Positions 17,278 through 64,000 of a DNA stretch of 64,000 nt are shown one piece after another; position 1 is the first letter of the stretch; the number at the start of each line of letters is the position of its first letter. The stretch is from the human T2T-CHM13v2.0 reference genome, Homo sapiens, in the NCBI RefSeq assembly GCF_009914755.1, contig NC_060947.1; one strand, given 5' to 3'. Below the pieces are notes generated by a model. That model was not told the origin of the DNA, did no database searches, and worked only from the letters and a program-made list of their open reading frames with translations. The translations under genes were made by a program, and so were the position numbers.

Positions 17278-20926
<3,649 letters not shown>

Positions 20927-34479: not shown

Positions 34480-36110
34480 CATGAATCTGGTATAGGCATT
34501 TGAAAAACTACAACAATGGAGAAGACAGACTTCTGACATGATGAAGTGTCAACATTAGAGACAGAGATAATCATAGTATTAGATTGCACCATATGAAATT
34601 GCCAATATTTCACAATTTTGGTTTTATCAAAGAAAGCAATTTCTTATGGTCAACCTAATATAAGAGCTGTGACATCCATGCTTCATGAACAATAAAAGAG
34701 TTGATGGACATTTTACAGGAGTATACAGGAATGGTACGGTTCAGAAAACCATAGTATATGAGTAAGAAAAGATAGTGCATGATCAGACAACTCCAAGCAT
34801 AAGTAACTTCCATGGTAAGGGCAGTAACCATGATATACGCTCAAACATTCACAGTGCTTTAGCAGACCTTAATGTTGTGTAATCATATGACAAGAATTAA
34901 TGTTCAGATAATCACGATACATGAATTGACAACTACTCTACAGGAACAGAGACACTTGGGCTAGGATATGAAGTTCAAATCATAGAAATAATCCATGGAA
35001 CATAAGACATAGCCATGATGCATGCTTAGAAAACATGAGTCCATGAGTAACAATCCTGGATGTAGGAGAAGATGGCCATGCTGTGTAAACAAAGAGATCC
35101 ATAGTGTGTGTTCAGCTATGCTATTCTACTATATCACTATGGGTTATGTTCAAATTATCATGGTAGATAAGCAGCAAACTATCATATTAAGAATAGATGG
35201 CAATTACATAGAATTAAATGCCCATGATTTGGAAAGAGAAAACTAAGACATATACTATGATACATAAAAAAGACAACAGCATTACATGAAATCATAACTA
35301 AATAAAATGTCTGTGACAGTGAAACAAAGAGCCTTCAAAAATGATCACACATCCATGTGGCTGGAGGCAAATACAGTATATGCATAGACAAACATGATAC
35401 ATGTGAAGAAGCATTTGGTACATCAATTCTTAACCATGATAAATGCACACAGAATATATGTATCATAGCAACCATACTATAGGAATTAAGTGAAATGGTT
35501 TAGGAGCAGACTGAAGTGCTATGGAATTAGATTACCATGGTGCAGGAACACAAAAGGTCATGGTCCATGAGTAGGCAGACATGGTCAAAAATTTTTCACT
35601 GTAGCAGAAAGGTAAGATACAGTTGCAAGTGACCATAGTGAAGAATTGATATCCTTTGGGTAATGATGATGACAGTGAATAAATAGCTATTTGTAGTGTA
35701 CGAACACACAAATATAACGCACATATCCATGGTGAATAAAATGAAAATTACAGTGAAGGAACATCATACGAATATTCAGACAACCATGATGTACAAGCAG
35801 AAGGTAAAACCTATTGCTGATTTTAATCAAGAAGCCAGGCTATGTTGCAAAAGTAGACAACCATAGTGTATGCTTATATAAGTACAGTACATAAAAAAAA
35901 AATGTCCTGTGAGTTTACAGTCAACCATGGCACAAATGCAGATGCCTTTGGCAGGAGCAGATTGGCTATGAAACAGGAGGAGACAACTCTTGTGCAAACT
36001 CAGATAATCATGGTGTTAGAAGAGATTATCCATGATACATGAACACATAATCATGACACGTGCTCAGGCCATTATAATATGTAATTGCATGGCCAAATTA
36101 GCAAATGATT
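34480..36110. repeat. Second block of the same degenerate 21-bp repeat
   Basis: Units start at 34836, 34857, 34878, 34899, 34920, 34941, 34962 (e.g. TACGCTCAAACATTCACAGTG, AATGTTCAGATAATCACGATA). Many ACCATG(G/A)T and CAGA(C/T)AA motifs. Confidence 0.8.
34577..34660. mobile_element. MADE2 mariner MITE inserted in the 21-bp repeat block
   Basis: tattagattgcaccatatgaaattgc ... gcaatttcttatggtcaacctaata TIRs with TA ends. Confidence 0.85.
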
Positions 36111-55957: not shown

Positions 55958-58781
55958 AAGAAGCCACAAAGGAAAATCATGATTCCATTCATATAAAGTT
56001 CAAAAACAGCAAAACTAAAGTGTATTTTGTTATACATATAATAAAGTTATTTTTAAAAGTAAGATTAAGGATAGTGGAAGTAAAGTGGGAAAGAAAAGGT
56101 TGAAATTAGAAATAAGTTCGTTACAGGCTTCTGGAGTACCCACAATGTTATAGCTGTTGACTTAGTGGTTCTACAGGTGTTCACTTCTTAATTATTCTAA
56201 AACAGCGTGCATCTTTGTGTGATAATTATATTTACATATATAGTGTTTCATATTTTAAGCTAAAACACAGAAAAGTAAGTCCTATGCACAGTTGAATAAT
56301 AAAAATTTCAGATTGTTGATTACATTGATATATATCCTTAAAAACTTAGTCTTAAGATTGATTGAAGAAATGCAATTAAAGCAACAAGGCATCACTCCAC
56401 CTATCAAATGAACAAAAGCTTTTTAAAAAAATGCTAAACAATTCTGTTGAAGATAGGACGAGACAAGAATTCCATATATCTGCTAGTGTGAGCGTAAATC
56501 TATGCTTCCTTCCTTGTAAACAATCTTGCAGCATGAATAAAAAGCCTGTAAAAAAAAATCCATGCTTTGACTCAGTAACTGCACTTCTAGGAATCTACTG
56601 GACAGAAAAAAACCAAAGATTCAAAAAAGTCATGTTCAAATATATTTTCTGCAATATAACAGTATATTAGTTAAATTTTAAAAAATAAATTGAATGTGCA
56701 TACTAACAGAATGGTTAAATAAACAATGGTCGTTGATACATCTAAATATTATACAGGTGAAAATTACATTTTAGAACTATTTTATGTGGAAAAATGTATA
56801 TGATATATTAATATATTTGAAAGTCAGGATATATAACCCAGAAATATAAGTTTTCAATCAAAGAGATAGAGTGTCTTGTCCAATGTCGTAACACAATGAA
56901 AACAGAGAATGGAATTGAAACAAATATTATCAAAGAGAATAACTATAGCACAGGAGCGTTCAATCAATGAGTGCCCACCTGATCATGGTGTATTTTCTAT
57001 GTATGATCATCAAAGTGGACAAATAAACATTCTTAAGAGCATTACCATTGAATTGCATAACTTAGTGGTCCATAATAATAATCAGTAGCCAACTATAGAT
57101 TCTCACCCTGCATGTGTTCAGATAACCCTGACCATAAATGAGCCGATATTCACAATGCGTAAGTTGACAACCACTGTTTATGAGAAGATATCACTATTCC
57201 AAGAACACTACTATTTAGAATGAATACTAAATTTGCAATGGTAAATAAGTAGATATCCATAGTGAAGTAATGATGTTTTCACCAATAATATGAAGTCATT
57301 AAATCATGAAACATGTCATAATAGTGCTAGAGCACACAACTATAGGATGGTTATTATTCAGGCAGATACTGCATGTATTTTTAAAATTATGAAACAAATG
57401 GATTTGCTTCAGGATCAGATGCAACCATGCAAAAGATTATACTAATATATGCTCAAGCACACAGGGTACATGAACAGCTATCACTTAAGTTTGAAAAATT
57501 CATTATAATGGACACTCAAACAACTCTGCCACATTTGCTGCAAGGCATGCAACAGTAGACATTTGGAGATGAAAAAGGAAAAGAATGGTAATAGAAGAGC
57601 AGGCAAATGTGGTATATGAGCTAACCATCTAGGGCTTATAATACTTCATTCTTAGTACTATAGTAGACAATCATAGTTCAGGCATAGATACACATAGTAA
57701 ATATGCACAACTCTACAACTTAAGACAGAAGGAGATGTCACTAATGATCTGCTTACTGAAGTATATGTGTTGCTTGACTTAAACACACACAAGGCATAGA
57801 AAGTAGTAGCTTTGGTCCAGAAGTAGAGGGTAATGGTATAAAAAAGAAAACCTCGGCATAGATCAAGAAGACCATAGCACATAAATATCCATCAACAGCG
57901 TTTTATAATTTGACCATGATACATAACAAACAACCTCAGATTATGAATTGAAACTTACGAAACAGGAGGAAGTAGCCATGATGCAGAAATAAATGGACAT
58001 AGTACAGGTGCAATCACAAATACTGTGTTATGTGATACACAGAACATGAATTTTTAAAAATGGCTTTGGTCCAGGAGCTGAAGGAATTAATGCAAATGGA
58101 GATCCCACGGCACATTCCCAGACAACCATGCTGCGTGATGAAGCGGCACTACTAGAGGCTGAGGATTTGACCGTGATGCATAATCAGATGACAGCAGCTA
58201 TATAAGAGGAGATAGCAATGATTCAAGAACACATCTATGCAGCCTAAGTGCAGACAGTAATTGATATATGAAGGAATGTAGCAGATGGCAATGATGCAAA
58301 AGGAGATCATGAATACCATATGATCACAATGTACCCTAAGACAACTGCAAAATGAGCTCTTGACTATGTTATGAGAAGATGATATAGAAGGAGACAACAC
58401 TGATGGAGGGGAAGAATACCTCAGTGCCGGACCTAAAAACCATCATGCATCAGCTAATACATAGTCCAATACACAGAAGATGGCATTTTCGGTGCAGGAT
58501 CAAACTATAATGGCTCATGCTTAGAAAATTGTGATTTTTTATATATGGTACATGGAAGGGAAGCATGGTAAATGATAAAAAAAAATATAGGAGCAGAGAG
58601 ACATCGTTTAGAGCTTGTTCACATGGATAAGATTTGAGATTAAAAAAATACAACACAGGAACAAAGATTTGGGGGCAAAGTAAATGGCAATAGTAAAAAG
58701 TAAAACAACACAGTATATATTTAAATAGCAATGTGGTATGAACAAACATTCCTGGTGTTTGAACTTCTAATATACAATCAG

Positions 58782-58875
58782 TTTTCAACTTCTTTGCCTT
58801 TGGTTTGAATGTCCTCCCATAGCTCAGAGTAATTTGATCGTCTGAAGCCTTCTTCTCTCAGCTCGTCAAAGTCAT
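58782..58875 (-). mobile_element. 94-bp L1HS/L1PA2-type ORF1 fragment
   Basis: Encodes DFDELREEGFRRSNYSEL(W)EDIQTKGKEVEN; flanked by a caatcag direct repeat. Confidence 0.92.
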
Positions 58876-59434
58876 CAATCAGATAACTATAAAGTGTATG
58901 CTGAGAGTAAGGACACAGAGCTAAAGGATGTGATACAGAAACTGACAGCAATGACAGGAAACCATAAAAAGGGAATTCAAATGAAATAAATTTGATATAT
59001 AAACTTATTTCAATAACATGAATGATGGCTATCTCATTACAACAGTAGACACAATTATGCCTTATGCAGAAAACCATGGTATGTGAGCACATTAGATAAC
59101 TATGGTGATGCACATACAAGTATGTTTGAGGAAAAATTAGAAATGGTAGGTCAAGAAAGCCATAGACTGGTACTTACCGAGAGGGGCATGGTACAATATT
59201 TTCAAAATAAGATGGCATGAAATAGTCCAGGAGCAGATGGCAATGGCCCTATAGATGACATCAAGGCAAATGGTTGTACAACATTTGTGCATTGTAAAGC
59301 CACCACCAGTGCTTAACCATTAGACTATAACACACACCAAGATAATCCCAGAACATAGGCTGCCAACCATGATAGAGAATGAAGAAAAAATTCTAGTATA
59401 ATAACGATGATAACGATGATGAGGATATTATTAA

Positions 59435-59530
59435 AAATTATAATTATTTAGAACTTATTACATACCAAGCACTAAGCACTTTAAAAAAACAAGCATATGA
59501 GGTAGATGTTATTATTTTAGGGAAAAACAA
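59435..59530 (-). mobile_element. Partial MIR within the repeat array
   Basis: cataccaagcactaagcactt...tatgaggtagatgttattatt, preceded by an (ATA/ATG)n tail. Confidence 0.6.
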
Positions 59531-60554
59531 AAAAAAGTGATTTGTATATAATGCAGTCTACCCTTATTATATATCAGTGGTGCTATGCTACCTCTAATGG
59601 ATATGGTAAATTAAAAAACACATGCTTAACAGAGGAATTAATGGCTATATTGCTGATAGAGACAATAATTCCTGTTGCATAAATAAATATATAGTCCATT
59701 GCCAGACATTCTTGGTGTATGAGCAGTCACAATAGTCAGAACATTTGACCACAGGCACACTCAGATAATCCTGCAATATGAACTGACATTCAGGATGGCA
59801 GAAGCACAGGCAAACACGATACTGTCAAAATTAACAAACTGTTATTCATGATACAGATGATTCCATCCTTTTATCAGTTCAGGAGTAGACAATGACAACT
59901 GCATTTTTACACAACCATAGTGTATGAGCGAAAGTCTATAGTACAACCCCATACACAATATATGAGCAGAAATTCCTTACGCGTGCTCAGTCTACCATGG
60001 AGAATGAGCCAATACTTACACATAAAAGAAAACAGACATGACACAAAGAAAATAGCCACATAGTTGAAATTGTACAGATGATCACAATATATAATCGAAA
60101 AGCCACAATACGGGAAAGAATTCCTTGGTTTAGGAGGAGATGGCAATGGTAGGAGACACCATGACATGCGCTCCAATGATCACATGGAAGAAAAACTACC
60201 ACTGGTGTTTGAGAATTTAACCACAATACACACCAATATACACTGAAAGGTGAGCTATCAATTATGATACAGGTACAGGTGGAAATAGAATAGTAGTCAA
60301 CTACTGTGCTATTCTTTCTCAAAAAGACACGATGAATAATGAAATACAACACAGCAATGAATGACTTTGCCAAAGGAGTAAAGGGTATATGTGCAAAAGG
60401 AAAAACCAAGGTATAACATCAGACGACCATGCTGAATGGACAGCCACCACCAGTAATTTAGCATGTGACTAAGGTACACAACCAGACATTCTCAGAATGC
60501 AAGCTAAAAGTCATGATAAAGAATAAAGAGACATAATACAAATAATATAACAAT

Positions 60555-60760
60555 ATCAGCAAATACTTATCATTTATATGTGTCAGGCACTAATCTAAGC
60601 ATTCTACATGTGCATCTTTGAATCCTCACAACTCTATGAGGTATTATTATTTATTTTACAGTTTAGAAAACAGAAACAGAAGGGTGAAATGACTTCCTCA
60701 AGAATTTCAAACTATTAAATAGGAGAACTGGGATTTAAGTCCAAGCAGTGAGCATTGTGC
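60555..60760 (-). mobile_element. MIR within the repeat array
   Basis: tgtgtcaggcactaatctaagc...aatcctcacaactctatgagg...ttttacag...ggatttaagtccaagcag. Confidence 0.85.
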
Positions 60761-60871
60761 ACATACACTGATGGTGCCATGCTTCCTCATATGGATGTGA
60801 TACAAGATTAGAAACACAGAGCACAGGAACAAATGGCTTTGGTCCAGAAGCAGACGGCAATGTAGCAAAAG

Positions 60872-60952
60872 TAGACACCGTAGCACATGCTCAAACATCC
60901 GTGGTGCATGAGCAGCCACCACAGGAGTCTGAGCATTTGACCACGATGCACA
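60872..60952 (-). ncRNA. MIR105-1: microRNA 105-1 precursor hairpin (5p 60918-60940, 3p 60881-60902)
   Basis: The minus strand contains UCAAAUGCUCAGACUCCUGUGGU (miR-105-5p) and ACGGAUGUUUGAGCAUGUGCUA (3p) in an 81-nt fold-back. It is intronic and on the same strand as GABRA3. Confidence 0.97.
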
Positions 60953-62073
60953 CTCAGGTTCTGCAACAGAAGCTGACATCCAATATATAGGAGTAGATAC
61001 TGAGGACGAAGAAGGAGGCAAACACACTGTATGACAAAAAATCATGGTGCACAAAATTATATTCATGGTACAGAAAATTCCATTTTTAGTACAATGTAGA
61101 CAACGATGGTGCATTTTCACAAATCATGATGAATGAGCAGAAGACCATAGCTAAAGGGCATAAGCACATTCATACAACCATGGAAAATTAGCCAGGGCTC
61201 ACTTAGAGCCAAGAGACATCTTATGAGAAAATAATCATAAGTGGAGACCTCATAGATGGATATAGTACAAGATCAAAACATCTCAATACATGAATGATTA
61301 TTTCAAATGTAGGTGGCAAAGGTGCATAGAGGACCCACCGTGTAACATGTTCAGACAAAAGTTGATGAAAGCCATTAGTGATATTTGACTGTTTGATCTT
61401 GACTTACACAGGTACACAAAAGTAGTTTACACTATTACGTAGCATTTATGCCAAAGGAGCTAAGAGGCATAGATAGATACAGCACACAAACTTGTTTTCG
61501 GAGAATAAAACCATGCTGTGGTGCTTACTTAGACAGATATTGTGCCTTATACAAGAGCCACGGTACAGGGGTAAACAGCTTTGTCCATGAGTAGATGTCA
61601 GATATGTCAAAAGAGACCTGACACCATATACTCAGATGACCATTGCATGAACAGCCACCACTAGTATTTGGGCATTTGACTATGATGGCTACCTACACAA
61701 TCCCACGACATAAAGTAAAAGAATGATACAGGAGCAGGTAGACATGAAACCATGATTACCAAAACGGATATGGTTGGTGATTAAAAATCATTATTTTCTT
61801 TAGTCTGGGAGAAGATGGCAATGATTAAACGGGTGAAGTTATGATATATGCTGAAACAGCCATGTTGCATGAACAGCCATCACATCATAGGCATTTAAGC
61901 ATTTGACTGATGTACAATTAGAAAGCCCAGTGACATGAGATAACATCTGTCTTTTTGGAACAGATAAACAATGTGCAGAAAAAGGCAGAAGTGATCTAAG
62001 AGTAGAGAGTCATAGAATATGAGTAAATACTAAACTCATATACACGATGCATAAAACACTATTTCCCTGTAAA

Positions 62074-62182
62074 GCAGTAGACAATGAAGGTTCCTGCTCA
62101 GAAACCATGGGGTATGAGCAGACAAGCATGCTGCATGCTCAGACAACCATGGTGCATGAGCAAAAACCTACAATATAAAAGC
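62074..62182 (-). ncRNA. MIR767: microRNA 767 precursor hairpin (5p 62134-62156, 3p 62100-62122)
   Basis: The minus strand contains UGCACCAUGGUUGUCUGAGCAUG and UCUGCUCAUACCCCAUGGUUUCU, between the two miR-105 copies. Confidence 0.97.
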
Positions 62183-62724
62183 AGGTGGGTGTGATACAAG
62201 AGTGAATAACACAATGAGGAATATGCCCAGATGGACAGGACATATGAATAAAGGAAACATAACACATGAATACAACTTATTTAGGCAAACAGCATATGAC
62301 AATGATGCTGGAGGAGATATCATGGCACATACTCAGGCAATCATGGTGCATGAGCAACTAACACTAATATTTGACTGTTAAACCACGATGTACACCCAGA
62401 TATCCCAACAAAAATAAGCTGATGACCATAATATAGGAGCAGATGAACAAGGATATTGAAGAAGATGCTGATAATAAAATAGCAGAAAACGATAGTGCAG
62501 TAGCTAATAGAATACTACAGATGGCAACGATTCAAATGACTGCCATGGCATATACTTATATAATGATGCTTTAAACACTATCACAAGTATCAGCATTTGA
62601 CCATAATGCACACTTAGAGAACTCCAGAATTTGAGCTGACAATTATTATACACGATCAAGGGACACAGTATCATTATCATCATTGTCATGTCATCATCAT
62701 CATCATCATTGTTATCATCATCAT

Positions 62725-62935
62725 CACTACCTGCCAGGCAGTATTAAAAATATTTTATGTATAATAGCTTATACAATCCTCACAATAACCTTACTACTTT
62801 TTTTGTCATTTTGCAGGAAACTGAAGCATGAAGATACGAATTGATGTGTCCATTTCATGAACTGATGTGTCCAAGATCTCATAGCTAGTAAGTGGATAAT
62901 CCAGGATTCAAATTCAGTCATTTTGGCTCCACTAT
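62725..62935 (-). mobile_element. MIR within the repeat array, with (CAT)n microsatellite tail at ~62670-62727
   Basis: tgccaggcag...aatcctcacaataacc...ggaaactgaagc...agctagtaagtgg...caggattcaaa. Confidence 0.85.
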
Positions 62936-63064
62936 CCATTATTGTAAATATGACAATAAATGACAATATGCTGTGATTCTTCTGACAGACATGATACCAG
63001 ATTTTAAAACAGAGCAGAAAAATGAGTGGCTTTGTTCCAGAAGCAGATGGCAATGTTGCAAAAG

Positions 63065-63145
63065 TAGACACCATAGCACATGCTCAAACATCCGTGGTGC
63101 ATAAGCAGCCACCACAGGAGTCTGAGCATTTGACCACGATGCACA
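63065..63145 (-). ncRNA. MIR105-2: microRNA 105-2 precursor hairpin (5p 63111-63133)
   Basis: Second 81-nt copy with the same mature 5p; two substitutions relative to 60872-60952. Confidence 0.97.
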
Positions 63146-64000
63146 CACAGAAGATCTGCAACATGAGCTGATACCAGGTTATAGGGAGTAGACAGATGAC
63201 AAAGGACAGAGAAAACTCATCACAATAGTGAAAGACATGGTGTAGAAATTAATATACATAGTACAAAATACTCATTCCCAGTACAAGTAGACAATGATTG
63301 TGTATTTTCACACAAGTGTGGTGTTTAAGTTTAAATACGTAGTACAACTTCAATCACAGTATATGAGCACAAATTCATTATGTATGTTTATATTATCATG
63401 GAGAATAGGTCAATTCATACATGAAAAAGGGGATAGATATGGTATCCCAGCAAAGAATCACAGAGTAAAAACTGCTCAGGTGATACAAAAAATACGGGTA
63501 TGTATGGCATTTTGTCAAAAAGAAGATCAAAATAATACAGGATGTTCAGATGAATAAGATGCCAAAAAGCATGTTTTAATATGTGTTCATGAGGTCCAGT
63601 CAGACACCTACAGGACATAGGCTATCAATTATGACACAGGTGCAGATGGACATGATATGGAAATAAAACATGGTGTGATTCTTACTTGGGTAGATATGGT
63701 ATGTAATCAAAAATAACCATGCAAGCAATTAATGACTTTGGCCCAAGAGAAGATGACAGTGGTACAAAAAAAAGACTCACATGGACATAATGACTCATAA
63801 AAAAAATAACCATGGTGATTGACTCTACACATTTGTGTTTGGGCATGATATAAATCCAAACGATCCCATTACACAAACTAACAGCTATGATACAGTTAGT
63901 AAGCATGATACAGGAACAGACAGCAAATATGGAGAAAATACCCATTCTGCAGGAGCCAGTGACCACAATTCAGGAACTAATATTCATGTTATTAAAGTTA

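What the first reader, a model, noticed from the sequence alone, without database searches (positions are those of the whole stretch)
59221..63900. ~1.1-kb higher-order repeat (105-like, MIR, 105-like, 767-like, 105-like), with a shared MIR as time stamp
Seen: modules start at about 59221, 60361, 61578, 62518 and 63731. Each has a 105-like copy, a second 105-like copy (59690; MIR105-1; 61798; MIR105-2), a 767-like segment opening with GTAGACAA(T/C)GA (59885; 61096; MIR767; 63287) and a third 105-like copy. Three of the four complete modules carry a same-orientation MIR with a microsatellite tail at the same position (59435, 60555, 62725); the MIR767 module lacks it. Established: MIRs were active before or around the early mammalian radiations. 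Inference: the 21-bp array predates this MIR insertion, and module-scale duplication came after it.
Basis: partly seen in the sequence, partly recalled or inferred. Interest (0 to 1): 0.72.

Follow-up and report, generated by a model that had tools for sequence, protein, structure and literature searches.

The report
Ancient repeat modules around miR-105/767
The three human microRNA genes miR-105-1, miR-767 and miR-105-2 sit in a decayed array of about 1.2-kb repeat modules, most of which carry a copy of one old mobile-element insertion, so the array is probably old rather than a recent duplication.

Summary
A 21-bp periodicity underlies ~240-bp hairpin-type units. Four units (A, B, C, D) form a ~1.2-kb module present four times (59223, 60359, 61574, 62518), with a fifth starting at 63730. 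Same-position units resemble each other more than other units (0 of 5000 label permutations). The motif GTAGACAAYGA occurs only four times in the window, spaced 1211/981/1210 bp.

A MIR SINE lies in the A|B slot. It is clear in modules 2 and 4 (74.7 and 83.2 bits against a profile of 21 unrelated MIR copies). In module 1 it is a degraded remnant (11.7 bits; 0 of 300 shuffles reach this). The MIR767 module has a clean empty slot.

Orientation and junctions agree, so I read this as one insertion copied with the module. The private-mutation test is negative: the MIR copies are no more alike than unrelated MIRs (60% identity). I infer that duplication followed insertion quickly.

Only ~150 bp around the two miR-105 hairpins stays 90-98% identical. 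Cattle are reported to have the same 105a~767~105b order.

This is a relic higher-order repeat at a known locus, of moderate interest.

The parts
57397..64000 (.). Array of 105-like units of about 240 bp with an underlying 21-bp periodicity. It runs past the window end to about 65800; the lag-21 signal runs to about 68000.
   Evidence: Unit profile hits. Lag-21 match is 0.326 against about 0.27 at other lags and in two control regions. Per-module z is 2.4-5.6. No such units elsewhere in 273 kb except at 34713-36067.
59223..60358 (.). Module 1: A1 59223-59341, MIR remnant, B1 59639-59764, C1 from 59885, D1 60123-60236.
59401..59517 (-). Degraded MIR in module 1. The tail-like microsatellite is 59401-59440 and the MIR body is 59441-59517 (profile positions 2-105).
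   Evidence: 11.7 bits against the independent MIR profile; 0 of 300 shuffles reach it. 11.8 bits against 6.6 on its antisense strand. Missed with default filters. TRF reports a 9-bp repeat at 59401-59420. The strand is inferred from the tail end; MIR polarity is recalled.
60359..61573 (.). Module 2: A2 60359-60485, MIR, B2 60831-60957 (MIR105-1), C2 from 61096, D2 61298-61409.
60537..60749 (-). MIR in module 2. The tail is about 60537-60563 and the body is 60564-60749 (profile positions 6-209).
   Evidence: 74.7 bits. E 1.5e-19 with default filters.
60872..60952 (-). MIR105-1 hairpin (the core of unit B2).
   Evidence: Rfam RF00670 110.2 bits, above the gathering score of 68. Fold z -5.45.
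61574..62517 (.). Module 3, without a MIR: A3 61574-61695, empty slot near 61743-61746, B3 61793-61921, C3 62070-62162 (MIR767), D3 62277-62399.
   Evidence: No MIR signal at maximum sensitivity. Anchor-to-anchor 43 bp. The M2-M3 offset drops from 1213 to 961/981 across the slot.
62086..62171 (-). MIR767 hairpin (core of unit C3). It holds the only TRF-detectable run of the 21-bp unit (62099-62162).
   Evidence: Rfam RF01033 111.4 bits, above the gathering score of 90. TRF period 21, 3.1 copies. Fold z -4.49.
62518..63729 (.). Module 4: A4 62518-62617, MIR, B4 63024-63150 (MIR105-2), C4 from 63287, and a degenerate D4 at about 63506-63719.
62663..62958 (-). MIR in module 4. The (ATC)n tail is about 62663-62723 and the body is 62724-62958 (profile positions 16-245).
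   Evidence: 83.2-83.6 bits. TRF reports a 3-bp repeat at 62670-62726.
63065..63145 (-). MIR105-2 hairpin (the core of unit B4).
   Evidence: Rfam RF00670 108.9 bits. Fold z -5.70.
63730..64000 (.). Start of module 5 (A5 63730-63847). It continues beyond the window, has no MIR, and is poorly colinear with the other modules.

Best explanation
This is the relic of a three-level tandem array in intron 1 of GABRA3.

(1) A 21-bp satellite-like motif grew into units of about 240 bp. On the minus (transcribed) strand each unit could fold into a hairpin.

(2) Four diverged units (A, B, C, D) became a module of about 1 kb. A single MIR SINE inserted between units A and B of one module.

(3) The module carrying that MIR was then copied by unequal exchange, giving modules 1, 2 and 4. 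The module that holds MIR767 either descends from a copy made before the insertion or lost the element cleanly.

The copying happened soon after the insertion. The MIR copies, and the modules outside the hairpins, have since drifted about as far apart as unrelated MIR copies have. I infer this was well before the radiation of placental mammals.

Selection, possibly helped by gene conversion, has kept only three hairpins intact: B2 and B4 (miR-105) and C3 (miR-767). The other units are decaying. The three hairpins are cut out of the intronic GABRA3 or CT-GABRA3 transcript.

Shown here: the hierarchy, the slot, the divergence figures and the hairpin folds. Inferred: the order of events, the dating and the mechanism of unequal exchange.
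For: Hierarchy. Lag-21 is 0.326 against about 0.27 and is seen in every module. The offset profile has steps of about 240 bp and maxima at 1212, 2177 and 3387.

Module structure. Mean same-type inter-module alignment score is 52.0 against 26.6 for cross-type pairs. Permutations reaching the observed value: 0 of 5000 by mean, 4 of 5000 by median. Dropping every pair that involves a miRNA-bearing unit gives 2 of 5000 by mean and 10 of 5000 by median. 13 of 16 units have their best outside partner in the same position. GTAGACAAYGA occurs 4 times against 0.03 expected, spaced 1211/981/1210.

MIR. Scores are 74.7 and 83.2 bits, plus the 11.7-bit remnant. All three are on the same strand. The tail begins 24-31 nt after the shared left anchor and the right flank is homologous.

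Early duplication. M2-M4 MIR identity is 98 of 163 (0.60), against 0.578 +/- 0.043 for unrelated pairs. Each copy is 27-29% from the consensus. M2 against M4 shows 50-60% identity along the module, but 90-98% at 60833-60980.

Hairpins. Of 22 units folded, only the three annotated hairpins fold strongly: z -5.45, -4.49 and -5.70. The next best is -2.37.

Published reports. [quoted passage not shown] Two miR-105 genes are named in dog, rabbit and pig (passages seen). miR-105 and miR-767 derive from GABRA3 intron 1 (PMC4164501, passages seen).
Against: - No excess of shared private mutations links the MIR copies. Their common origin rests on position and orientation only.
- The M1 MIR is weak: 11.7 bits, it needs the filters switched off, and as a query it found only one unrelated MIR copy, at E 0.75.
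- Module identity outside the hairpins (50-60% in a global alignment) is close to what an aligner can give for unrelated sequence. The case for homology leans on colinearity and the permutation test.
- Modules upstream (57397-59222) and downstream (from 63730) do not fit the four-unit pattern.
- D4 is not detected by the unit profile.
- Three of 16 units have a best partner of another type (D1 and D3 with B4, A4 with B1).
- Hertel et al. [quoted passage not shown] That conflicts with an old duplication.
- No other mammalian genome could be examined here.
Confidence: 0.72

Rival explanations
1. All module-scale duplication came after the MIR insertion, and the MIR767 module later lost its MIR and tail by deletion.
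For: Module 3 lies between two MIR-bearing modules. A2-A3 is the best-scoring A pair (59), so M3 is not obviously the oldest branch. Precise removal of SINEs by recombination between short flanking repeats is a known process (recalled, not checked here).
Against: The gap in M3 matches the tail plus MIR to within a few bases: anchor-to-anchor is 43 bp against 229-341 bp. No MIR remnant is seen at maximum sensitivity. A random deletion would rarely be that exact. B3 and D3 are among the most divergent of their types (B1-B3 21, D2-D3 26).
Confidence: 0.3
2. Three independent MIR insertions hit the same A-rich slot of three already existing modules.
For: The MIR copies share no more derived states than unrelated copies do. 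The left flank is A-rich, which might attract insertions primed at A-rich sites (inference).
Against: About 25 MIR hits were found in about 262 kb of flanking sequence plus 12 kb of other loci, roughly one per 10 kb. Three hits within a few bases of the same homologous point, all in one orientation, are therefore extremely unlikely (inference). Absence of private mutations is also what early duplication predicts.
Confidence: 0.03
3. There is no true module. The off-diagonals only reflect three conserved miRNA hairpins within a plain array of monomers.
For: The strongest diagonal by far (265 bits) is MIR105-1 against MIR105-2. Many units hit B2 or B4 best.
Against: The same-type excess survives removal of every pair involving B2, B4 or C3: 2 of 5000 permutations by mean and 10 of 5000 by median. 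Colinear hits lie outside the hairpins: 59884-60093 with 63286-63494, 59298-59385 with 60442-60529, and 60254-60286 with 63621-63653. The GTAGACAAYGA anchor spacing points the same way.
Confidence: 0.05
4. MIR105-1 and MIR105-2 are alike because of recent gene conversion or a recent short duplication, not long-term purifying selection.
For: The two 81-nt hairpins differ at 2 positions, one of them in the loop (read). Identity is 98% at 60893-60952. The copies are only 2.2 kb apart in direct orientation, which favours conversion (inference).
Against: Identity falls off gradually on both sides (0.67, 0.81, 0.92, 0.95, 0.98, 0.90, 0.70, 0.53) instead of forming a block with sharp edges. The rest of the module is at 50-60%. 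Two miR-105 genes flanking miR-767 are also listed in cattle.
Confidence: 0.3

Closest known systems
Higher-order repeats of tandem satellites (for example alpha-satellite HORs)
   Same: Diverged monomers are arranged in a fixed order, and that ordered block is itself repeated. Same-position monomers are closer to each other than neighbouring monomers are.
   Different: There are only four to five modules. Module identity is about 50-60% outside the hairpins, against near-identity in active HORs (recalled). The array sits in an intron rather than at a centromere. It is a fossil and is not being homogenised.
C19MC, the primate chromosome 19 miRNA cluster, with Alu elements inside each amplified unit (recalled, not read here)
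   Same: A miRNA hairpin and a SINE were co-amplified as one tandem unit inside a host transcript.
   Different: Here the SINE is a MIR, there are few copies, and the event is far older. There is no evidence that the SINE drove the amplification.
mir-105 and mir-767 precursor families (Rfam RF00670, RF01033)
   Same: Three units are full members above the gathering score. Assignment of mir-767 to the mir-105 family is in print (PMC1832191, passage seen).
   Different: The other units score below gathering (44.1, 39.3, 27.8, 24.7 and 24.3 bits) and do not fold well. They look like decayed paralogues.
X-linked MIR-506 family, reported as derived from a DNA transposon (PMC11031087; only the start of the abstract in a search listing was seen)
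   Same: An X-linked, testis-expressed miRNA family that expanded by local duplication.
   Different: Here no transposon origin of the hairpin was found. The test against the MIR profile gave no hit. The MIR is a passenger, not the source.

Membership tests
MIR SINE | Significant similarity to the MIR core, judged with a profile built from unrelated genomic copies. | tested here: met
   M2 scores 74.7 bits and M4 83.2 bits. With default filters the E-values are 1.5e-19 and 6.1e-20. M1 scores only 11.7 bits; 0 of 300 shuffles reach it.
MIR SINE | Same subfamily in all three copies (MIR, MIRb, MIRc, MIR3). | not testable with these tools
   No Dfam or RepeatMasker library is available. My profile of 21 copies does not resolve subfamilies.
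MIR SINE | Target-site duplications flanking the element. | tested here: inconclusive
   I inspected the flanks printed by eye and recognised no direct repeat. At this age none is expected to survive.
MIR SINE | Shared private mutations, which would prove that the copies descend from one insertion. | tested here: not met
   10 shared non-consensus states in 163 positions. The ratio is 0.79 against 0.625 +/- 0.19 (95th percentile 0.94) for 613 unrelated pairs.
Higher-order tandem repeat | Same-position units of different modules are more alike than different-position units. | tested here: met
   Mean score 52.0 against 26.6. 0 of 5000 permutations reach it by mean and 4 of 5000 by median. Without the miRNA-bearing units the counts are 2 of 5000 and 10 of 5000.
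Higher-order tandem repeat | Regular module length. | tested here: met
   Anchor motif spacing is 1211, 981 and 1210 bp. The short one lacks the 234-bp MIR with its tail.
Higher-order tandem repeat | High identity between modules (ongoing homogenisation). | tested here: not met
   50-60% identity outside the hairpin region.
mir-105 / mir-767 precursors | Rfam score above gathering, together with a stable hairpin. | tested here: met
   110.2, 108.9 and 111.4 bits and z -5.45, -5.70 and -4.49 for the three annotated genes only. The other 19 units folded have z between -2.37 and +1.58.

The most novel reading that the evidence does not exclude
The miR-105/767 family was born from a 21-bp satellite before or during the period of MIR activity. 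The copied MIR gives a datable bracket for the birth of a miRNA family from satellite DNA: unit array, then MIR insertion, then almost immediate module duplication, all before the placental radiation. The two miR-105 genes would then be ancient paralogues rather than the recent lineage-specific copies suggested in 2006. A few decayed units (62314-62394, 58099-58182, and 64214-64314 just past the window) may still give rise to small RNAs.
Probability: 0.4. Interest if true: 0.5.

Novelty: new member of a known kind. Interest (0 to 1): 0.36.

Why it matters
miR-105 and miR-767 are much studied as cancer-germline microRNAs, but I found no description of how the cluster arose. Six full-text searches turned up no account of the module structure or of the copied MIR.

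The structure gives a worked example of microRNA genes emerging from a short tandem repeat, with most copies decaying and three kept. It offers an internal clock that can be checked in other mammals. It also suggests that the 2006 view of the miR-105 duplication as recent should be revised.

It does not change what is known about the function of these microRNAs.

Tried and rejected
(1) MIR-head origin of the 105 hairpin. The long MIR profile gave weak hits on both miR-105 hairpins (window 60919-60952 and 63112-63142; E 5.4 and 7.8). The trimmed MIR profile against the 105-unit consensus gave no hit at all at maximum sensitivity. Rejected.

(2) Finding the M1 MIR with ordinary searches. It was missed. 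Used as a query, it hit only one unrelated MIR copy, at E 0.75. It appears only with the filters off.

(3) Private-mutation test of common MIR descent. No excess was found.

(4) Fitting the upstream stretch (57397-59222) and module 5 onward to the A-B-C-D pattern. Offsets were inconsistent and E-values were mostly above 0.01.

(5) Looking for extra intact hairpins. None was found beyond the three annotated ones; the best other candidate, at 64214-64314, has z -2.37.

(6) Rooting the modules to decide whether M3 branched first. Four taxa without an outgroup, at about 55% identity, cannot answer this, so I did not attempt it.

I took 20 short stretches instead.
Full report
**What is there**

The window is part of GABRA3 on chrX; Loriot et al. 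2014 place miR-105 and miR-767 in its first intron (PMC4164501, passages seen). I built a profile of the '105-like' unit by iterating from MIR105-1. It finds 25 matches at E<0.001 in the window. On the + strand the units lie at 57397, 57805, 58058, 58278, 58666, 59223, 59639, 60123, 60359, 60831 (MIR105-1), 61298, 61574, 61793, 62070 (MIR767), 62277, 62518, 63024 (MIR105-2) and 63730. Weaker units follow past the window end, to about 65800.

A second small patch lies at 34713-36067. In 273 kb around the window there are no other copies. Rfam's own mir-105 model independently recognises several extra units below its threshold: 62314-62394 at 44.1 bits, 58099-58182 at 39.3 bits and 61836-61916 at 27.8 bits.

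**Three levels of repetition**

- 21 bp. The fraction of matching bases at lag 21 is 0.326 across 57300-65900. Other lags, and two control regions, give about 0.27. The signal is present in every module (z 2.4-5.6), upstream, downstream to about 68 kb, and most strongly in the 34.6-36.2 kb patch (0.370, z 6.9).
- About 240 bp. The offset profile shows a ladder at 211, 462, 732, 964, 1212, 1440 and so on.
- About 1.2 kb. The same profile has its maxima at 1212, 2177 and 3387.

BLAST self-hits are colinear between modules. M1-M2 offsets are 1144/1194/1217. M2-M3 is 1213 before the MIR slot and 961/981 after it. M2-M4 is 2194 and 2158. M1-M4 is 3381/3402/3367.

**Test of the module idea**

I cut the four modules into A, B, C and D segments, leaving out the MIR, and scored all pairs by local alignment. 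Same-position pairs from different modules average 52.0, against 26.6 for other pairs. Shuffling position labels within modules reached that mean in 0 of 5000 trials, and reached the median in 4 of 5000.

Without the B2-B4 pair the counts are 0 of 5000 (mean) and 5 of 5000 (median). Without any pair involving the three miRNA-bearing units they are 2 of 5000 (mean) and 10 of 5000 (median).

13 of 16 units have their best outside partner at the same position. The exceptions are D1 and D3 (best with B4) and A4 (best with B1).

The motif GTAGACAAYGA occurs four times in 64 kb, at 59885, 61096, 62077 and 63287, against 0.03 expected. The spacing is 1211, 981 and 1210 bp.

Modules upstream of 59223 and beyond 63730 do not fit the pattern. 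The D unit of module 4 is not found by the profile.

**The MIR**

No repeat library was available, so I collected 21 MIR copies from elsewhere in the genome. I aligned them and built a 250-position profile that owes nothing to the array.

- Module 2 scores 74.7 bits at 60564-60749.
- Module 4 scores 83.2 bits at 62724-62953 (83.6 bits at 62724-62958).
- Module 1 scores 11.7 bits at 59441-59517. None of 300 dinucleotide shuffles reaches this (largest 9.2). The copy is missed by default filters, and its own antisense strand scores 6.6 bits.
- Modules 3 and 5 onward give nothing. Module 0 gives noise at 2.1 bits.

All three copies lie in the same direction. Their microsatellite end is on the low-coordinate side. 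By the polarity of MIR as I recall it, this puts them in sense on the minus strand, the strand of GABRA3 and the miRNAs. Similar AT-rich triplet tails are visible on several of the unrelated copies, so the tail is a property of MIR and not of this locus.

**Junctions**

Measured from a left anchor shared by the modules, the tail begins 24-31 nt downstream in modules 1, 2 and 4. The sequence to the right of the element is homologous in all of them.

Anchor-to-anchor distance is 229, 279 and 341 bp in modules 1, 2 and 4. In module 3 it is 43 bp, and both flanks run straight into each other there. That is a clean empty slot.

**Private mutations**

Aligned to the profile, the module 2 and module 4 copies overlap over 163 positions. 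They differ from the consensus at 27% and 29% of them. They share 10 non-consensus states and are 60.1% identical.

For 613 pairs of unrelated copies, the ratio of shared states to expectation is 0.625 +/- 0.19 (95th percentile 0.94), and identity is 0.578 +/- 0.043. The M2-M4 ratio is 0.79.

The M1-M2 pair is slightly high (identity 0.694, ratio 1.03), but over only 62 positions.

From these figures I infer that the shared stem after insertion is at most a small fraction of the elapsed time, roughly 5% and not more than about 15%. Independent insertions would also explain the negative test. However, three hits at one homologous point in one orientation, at a density of roughly one MIR per 10 kb, are very unlikely.

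**Age**

A sliding comparison of modules 2 and 4 shows 50-60% identity over the A unit, the MIR, the spacers and the C and D units. It rises to 0.81, 0.92, 0.95, 0.98 and 0.90 only across 60803-60980, which is the hairpin with about 40 nt on each side. There is a smaller rise to about 0.76 at 61041-61129.

So the 79.5% block seen by BLAST is a conserved island in an old duplication, not a sign of a recent one.

Of the 22 units I folded, only the three annotated hairpins fold far better than shuffles (z -5.45, -4.49 and -5.70). The remaining 19 lie between -2.37 and +1.58.

**What print says**

- Hertel et al. 2006 list mir-105 among clusters that arose after the eutherian ancestor, with two copies in human, three in dog and one elsewhere (PMC1388199, passage seen).
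- Huang et al. 2007 assign mir-767 to the mir-105 family (PMC1832191, passage seen).
[quoted passage not shown] This is the human order.
- Two miR-105 genes are also named in dog, rabbit and pig (passages seen).
- A preprint counts miR-105 among families common to six boreoeutherians and present in only one of tenrec and armadillo (passage seen).

These reports fit an old duplication and not a recent one. None of them describes modules or the MIR, and six full-text searches found no such description. Supplementary tables were not opened.

**Reading**

One MIR inserted into an existing array of units and was carried along when its module was copied. The copying was early. Whether the MIR767 module split off before the insertion or lost the element precisely cannot be settled from one genome. 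The exactness of the gap makes me lean towards 'before'.

I cannot separate purifying selection from gene conversion as the cause of the near-identity of the two miR-105 hairpins. They differ at 2 positions in 81 nt (read).

**Verdict**

The finding is a tidy, apparently undescribed piece of natural history at a well-known locus, of a known general kind.

Noticed in passing
window 34713-36067: A second patch of the same repeat family lies about 21 kb away on the same strand. It has four unit-profile hits at E<0.01 and the strongest 21-bp periodicity in the window (lag-21 0.370, z 6.9). It contains no annotated miRNA, and the two units folded there do not fold well (z -0.41 and +1.12).
   Followed up: partly
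window 62314-62394 and 58099-58182 (minus strand): Rfam's mir-105 model matches these decayed units at 44.1 and 39.3 bits (E 3.6e-07 and 8.2e-06), below the gathering score of 68. Their folds are not better than shuffles (z -0.73 and -0.36).
   Followed up: partly
L001:1214-1314 (window coordinates 64214-64314, beyond the window): This unit has the best fold among the non-annotated units (MFE -28.9, z -2.37). Rfam's mir-105 model matches weakly (23.2 bits, E 0.17) at L001:1222-1283.
   Followed up: partly
window 34577-34660: A sub-threshold Rfam mir-548 match is found on both strands (30.9 and 28.5 bits; gathering score 90). It is probably a palindromic MITE-type element (recalled).
   Followed up: no
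window 62830-62890 and 62941-62960: The module 4 MIR carries an internal duplication of about 20 nt, which the profile alignment treats as an insertion. A 10-nt tandem duplication lies at its high-coordinate end.
   Followed up: no
L001:1700-2050 (window coordinates about 64700-65050): A stretch that looks like an unrelated interspersed repeat interrupts the array beyond the window. I did not identify it.
   Followed up: no
window 57300-64000: The array has unusually few adjacent identical bases: lag-1 match is 0.242, against 0.307 and 0.308 in two control regions of the window.
   Followed up: no
window 18501-19500: This is the only 1-kb window outside the two repeat patches with a borderline lag-21 excess (0.326, z 3.0). 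It overlaps a stretch that NCBI masks as repeat (17945-19269).
   Followed up: no
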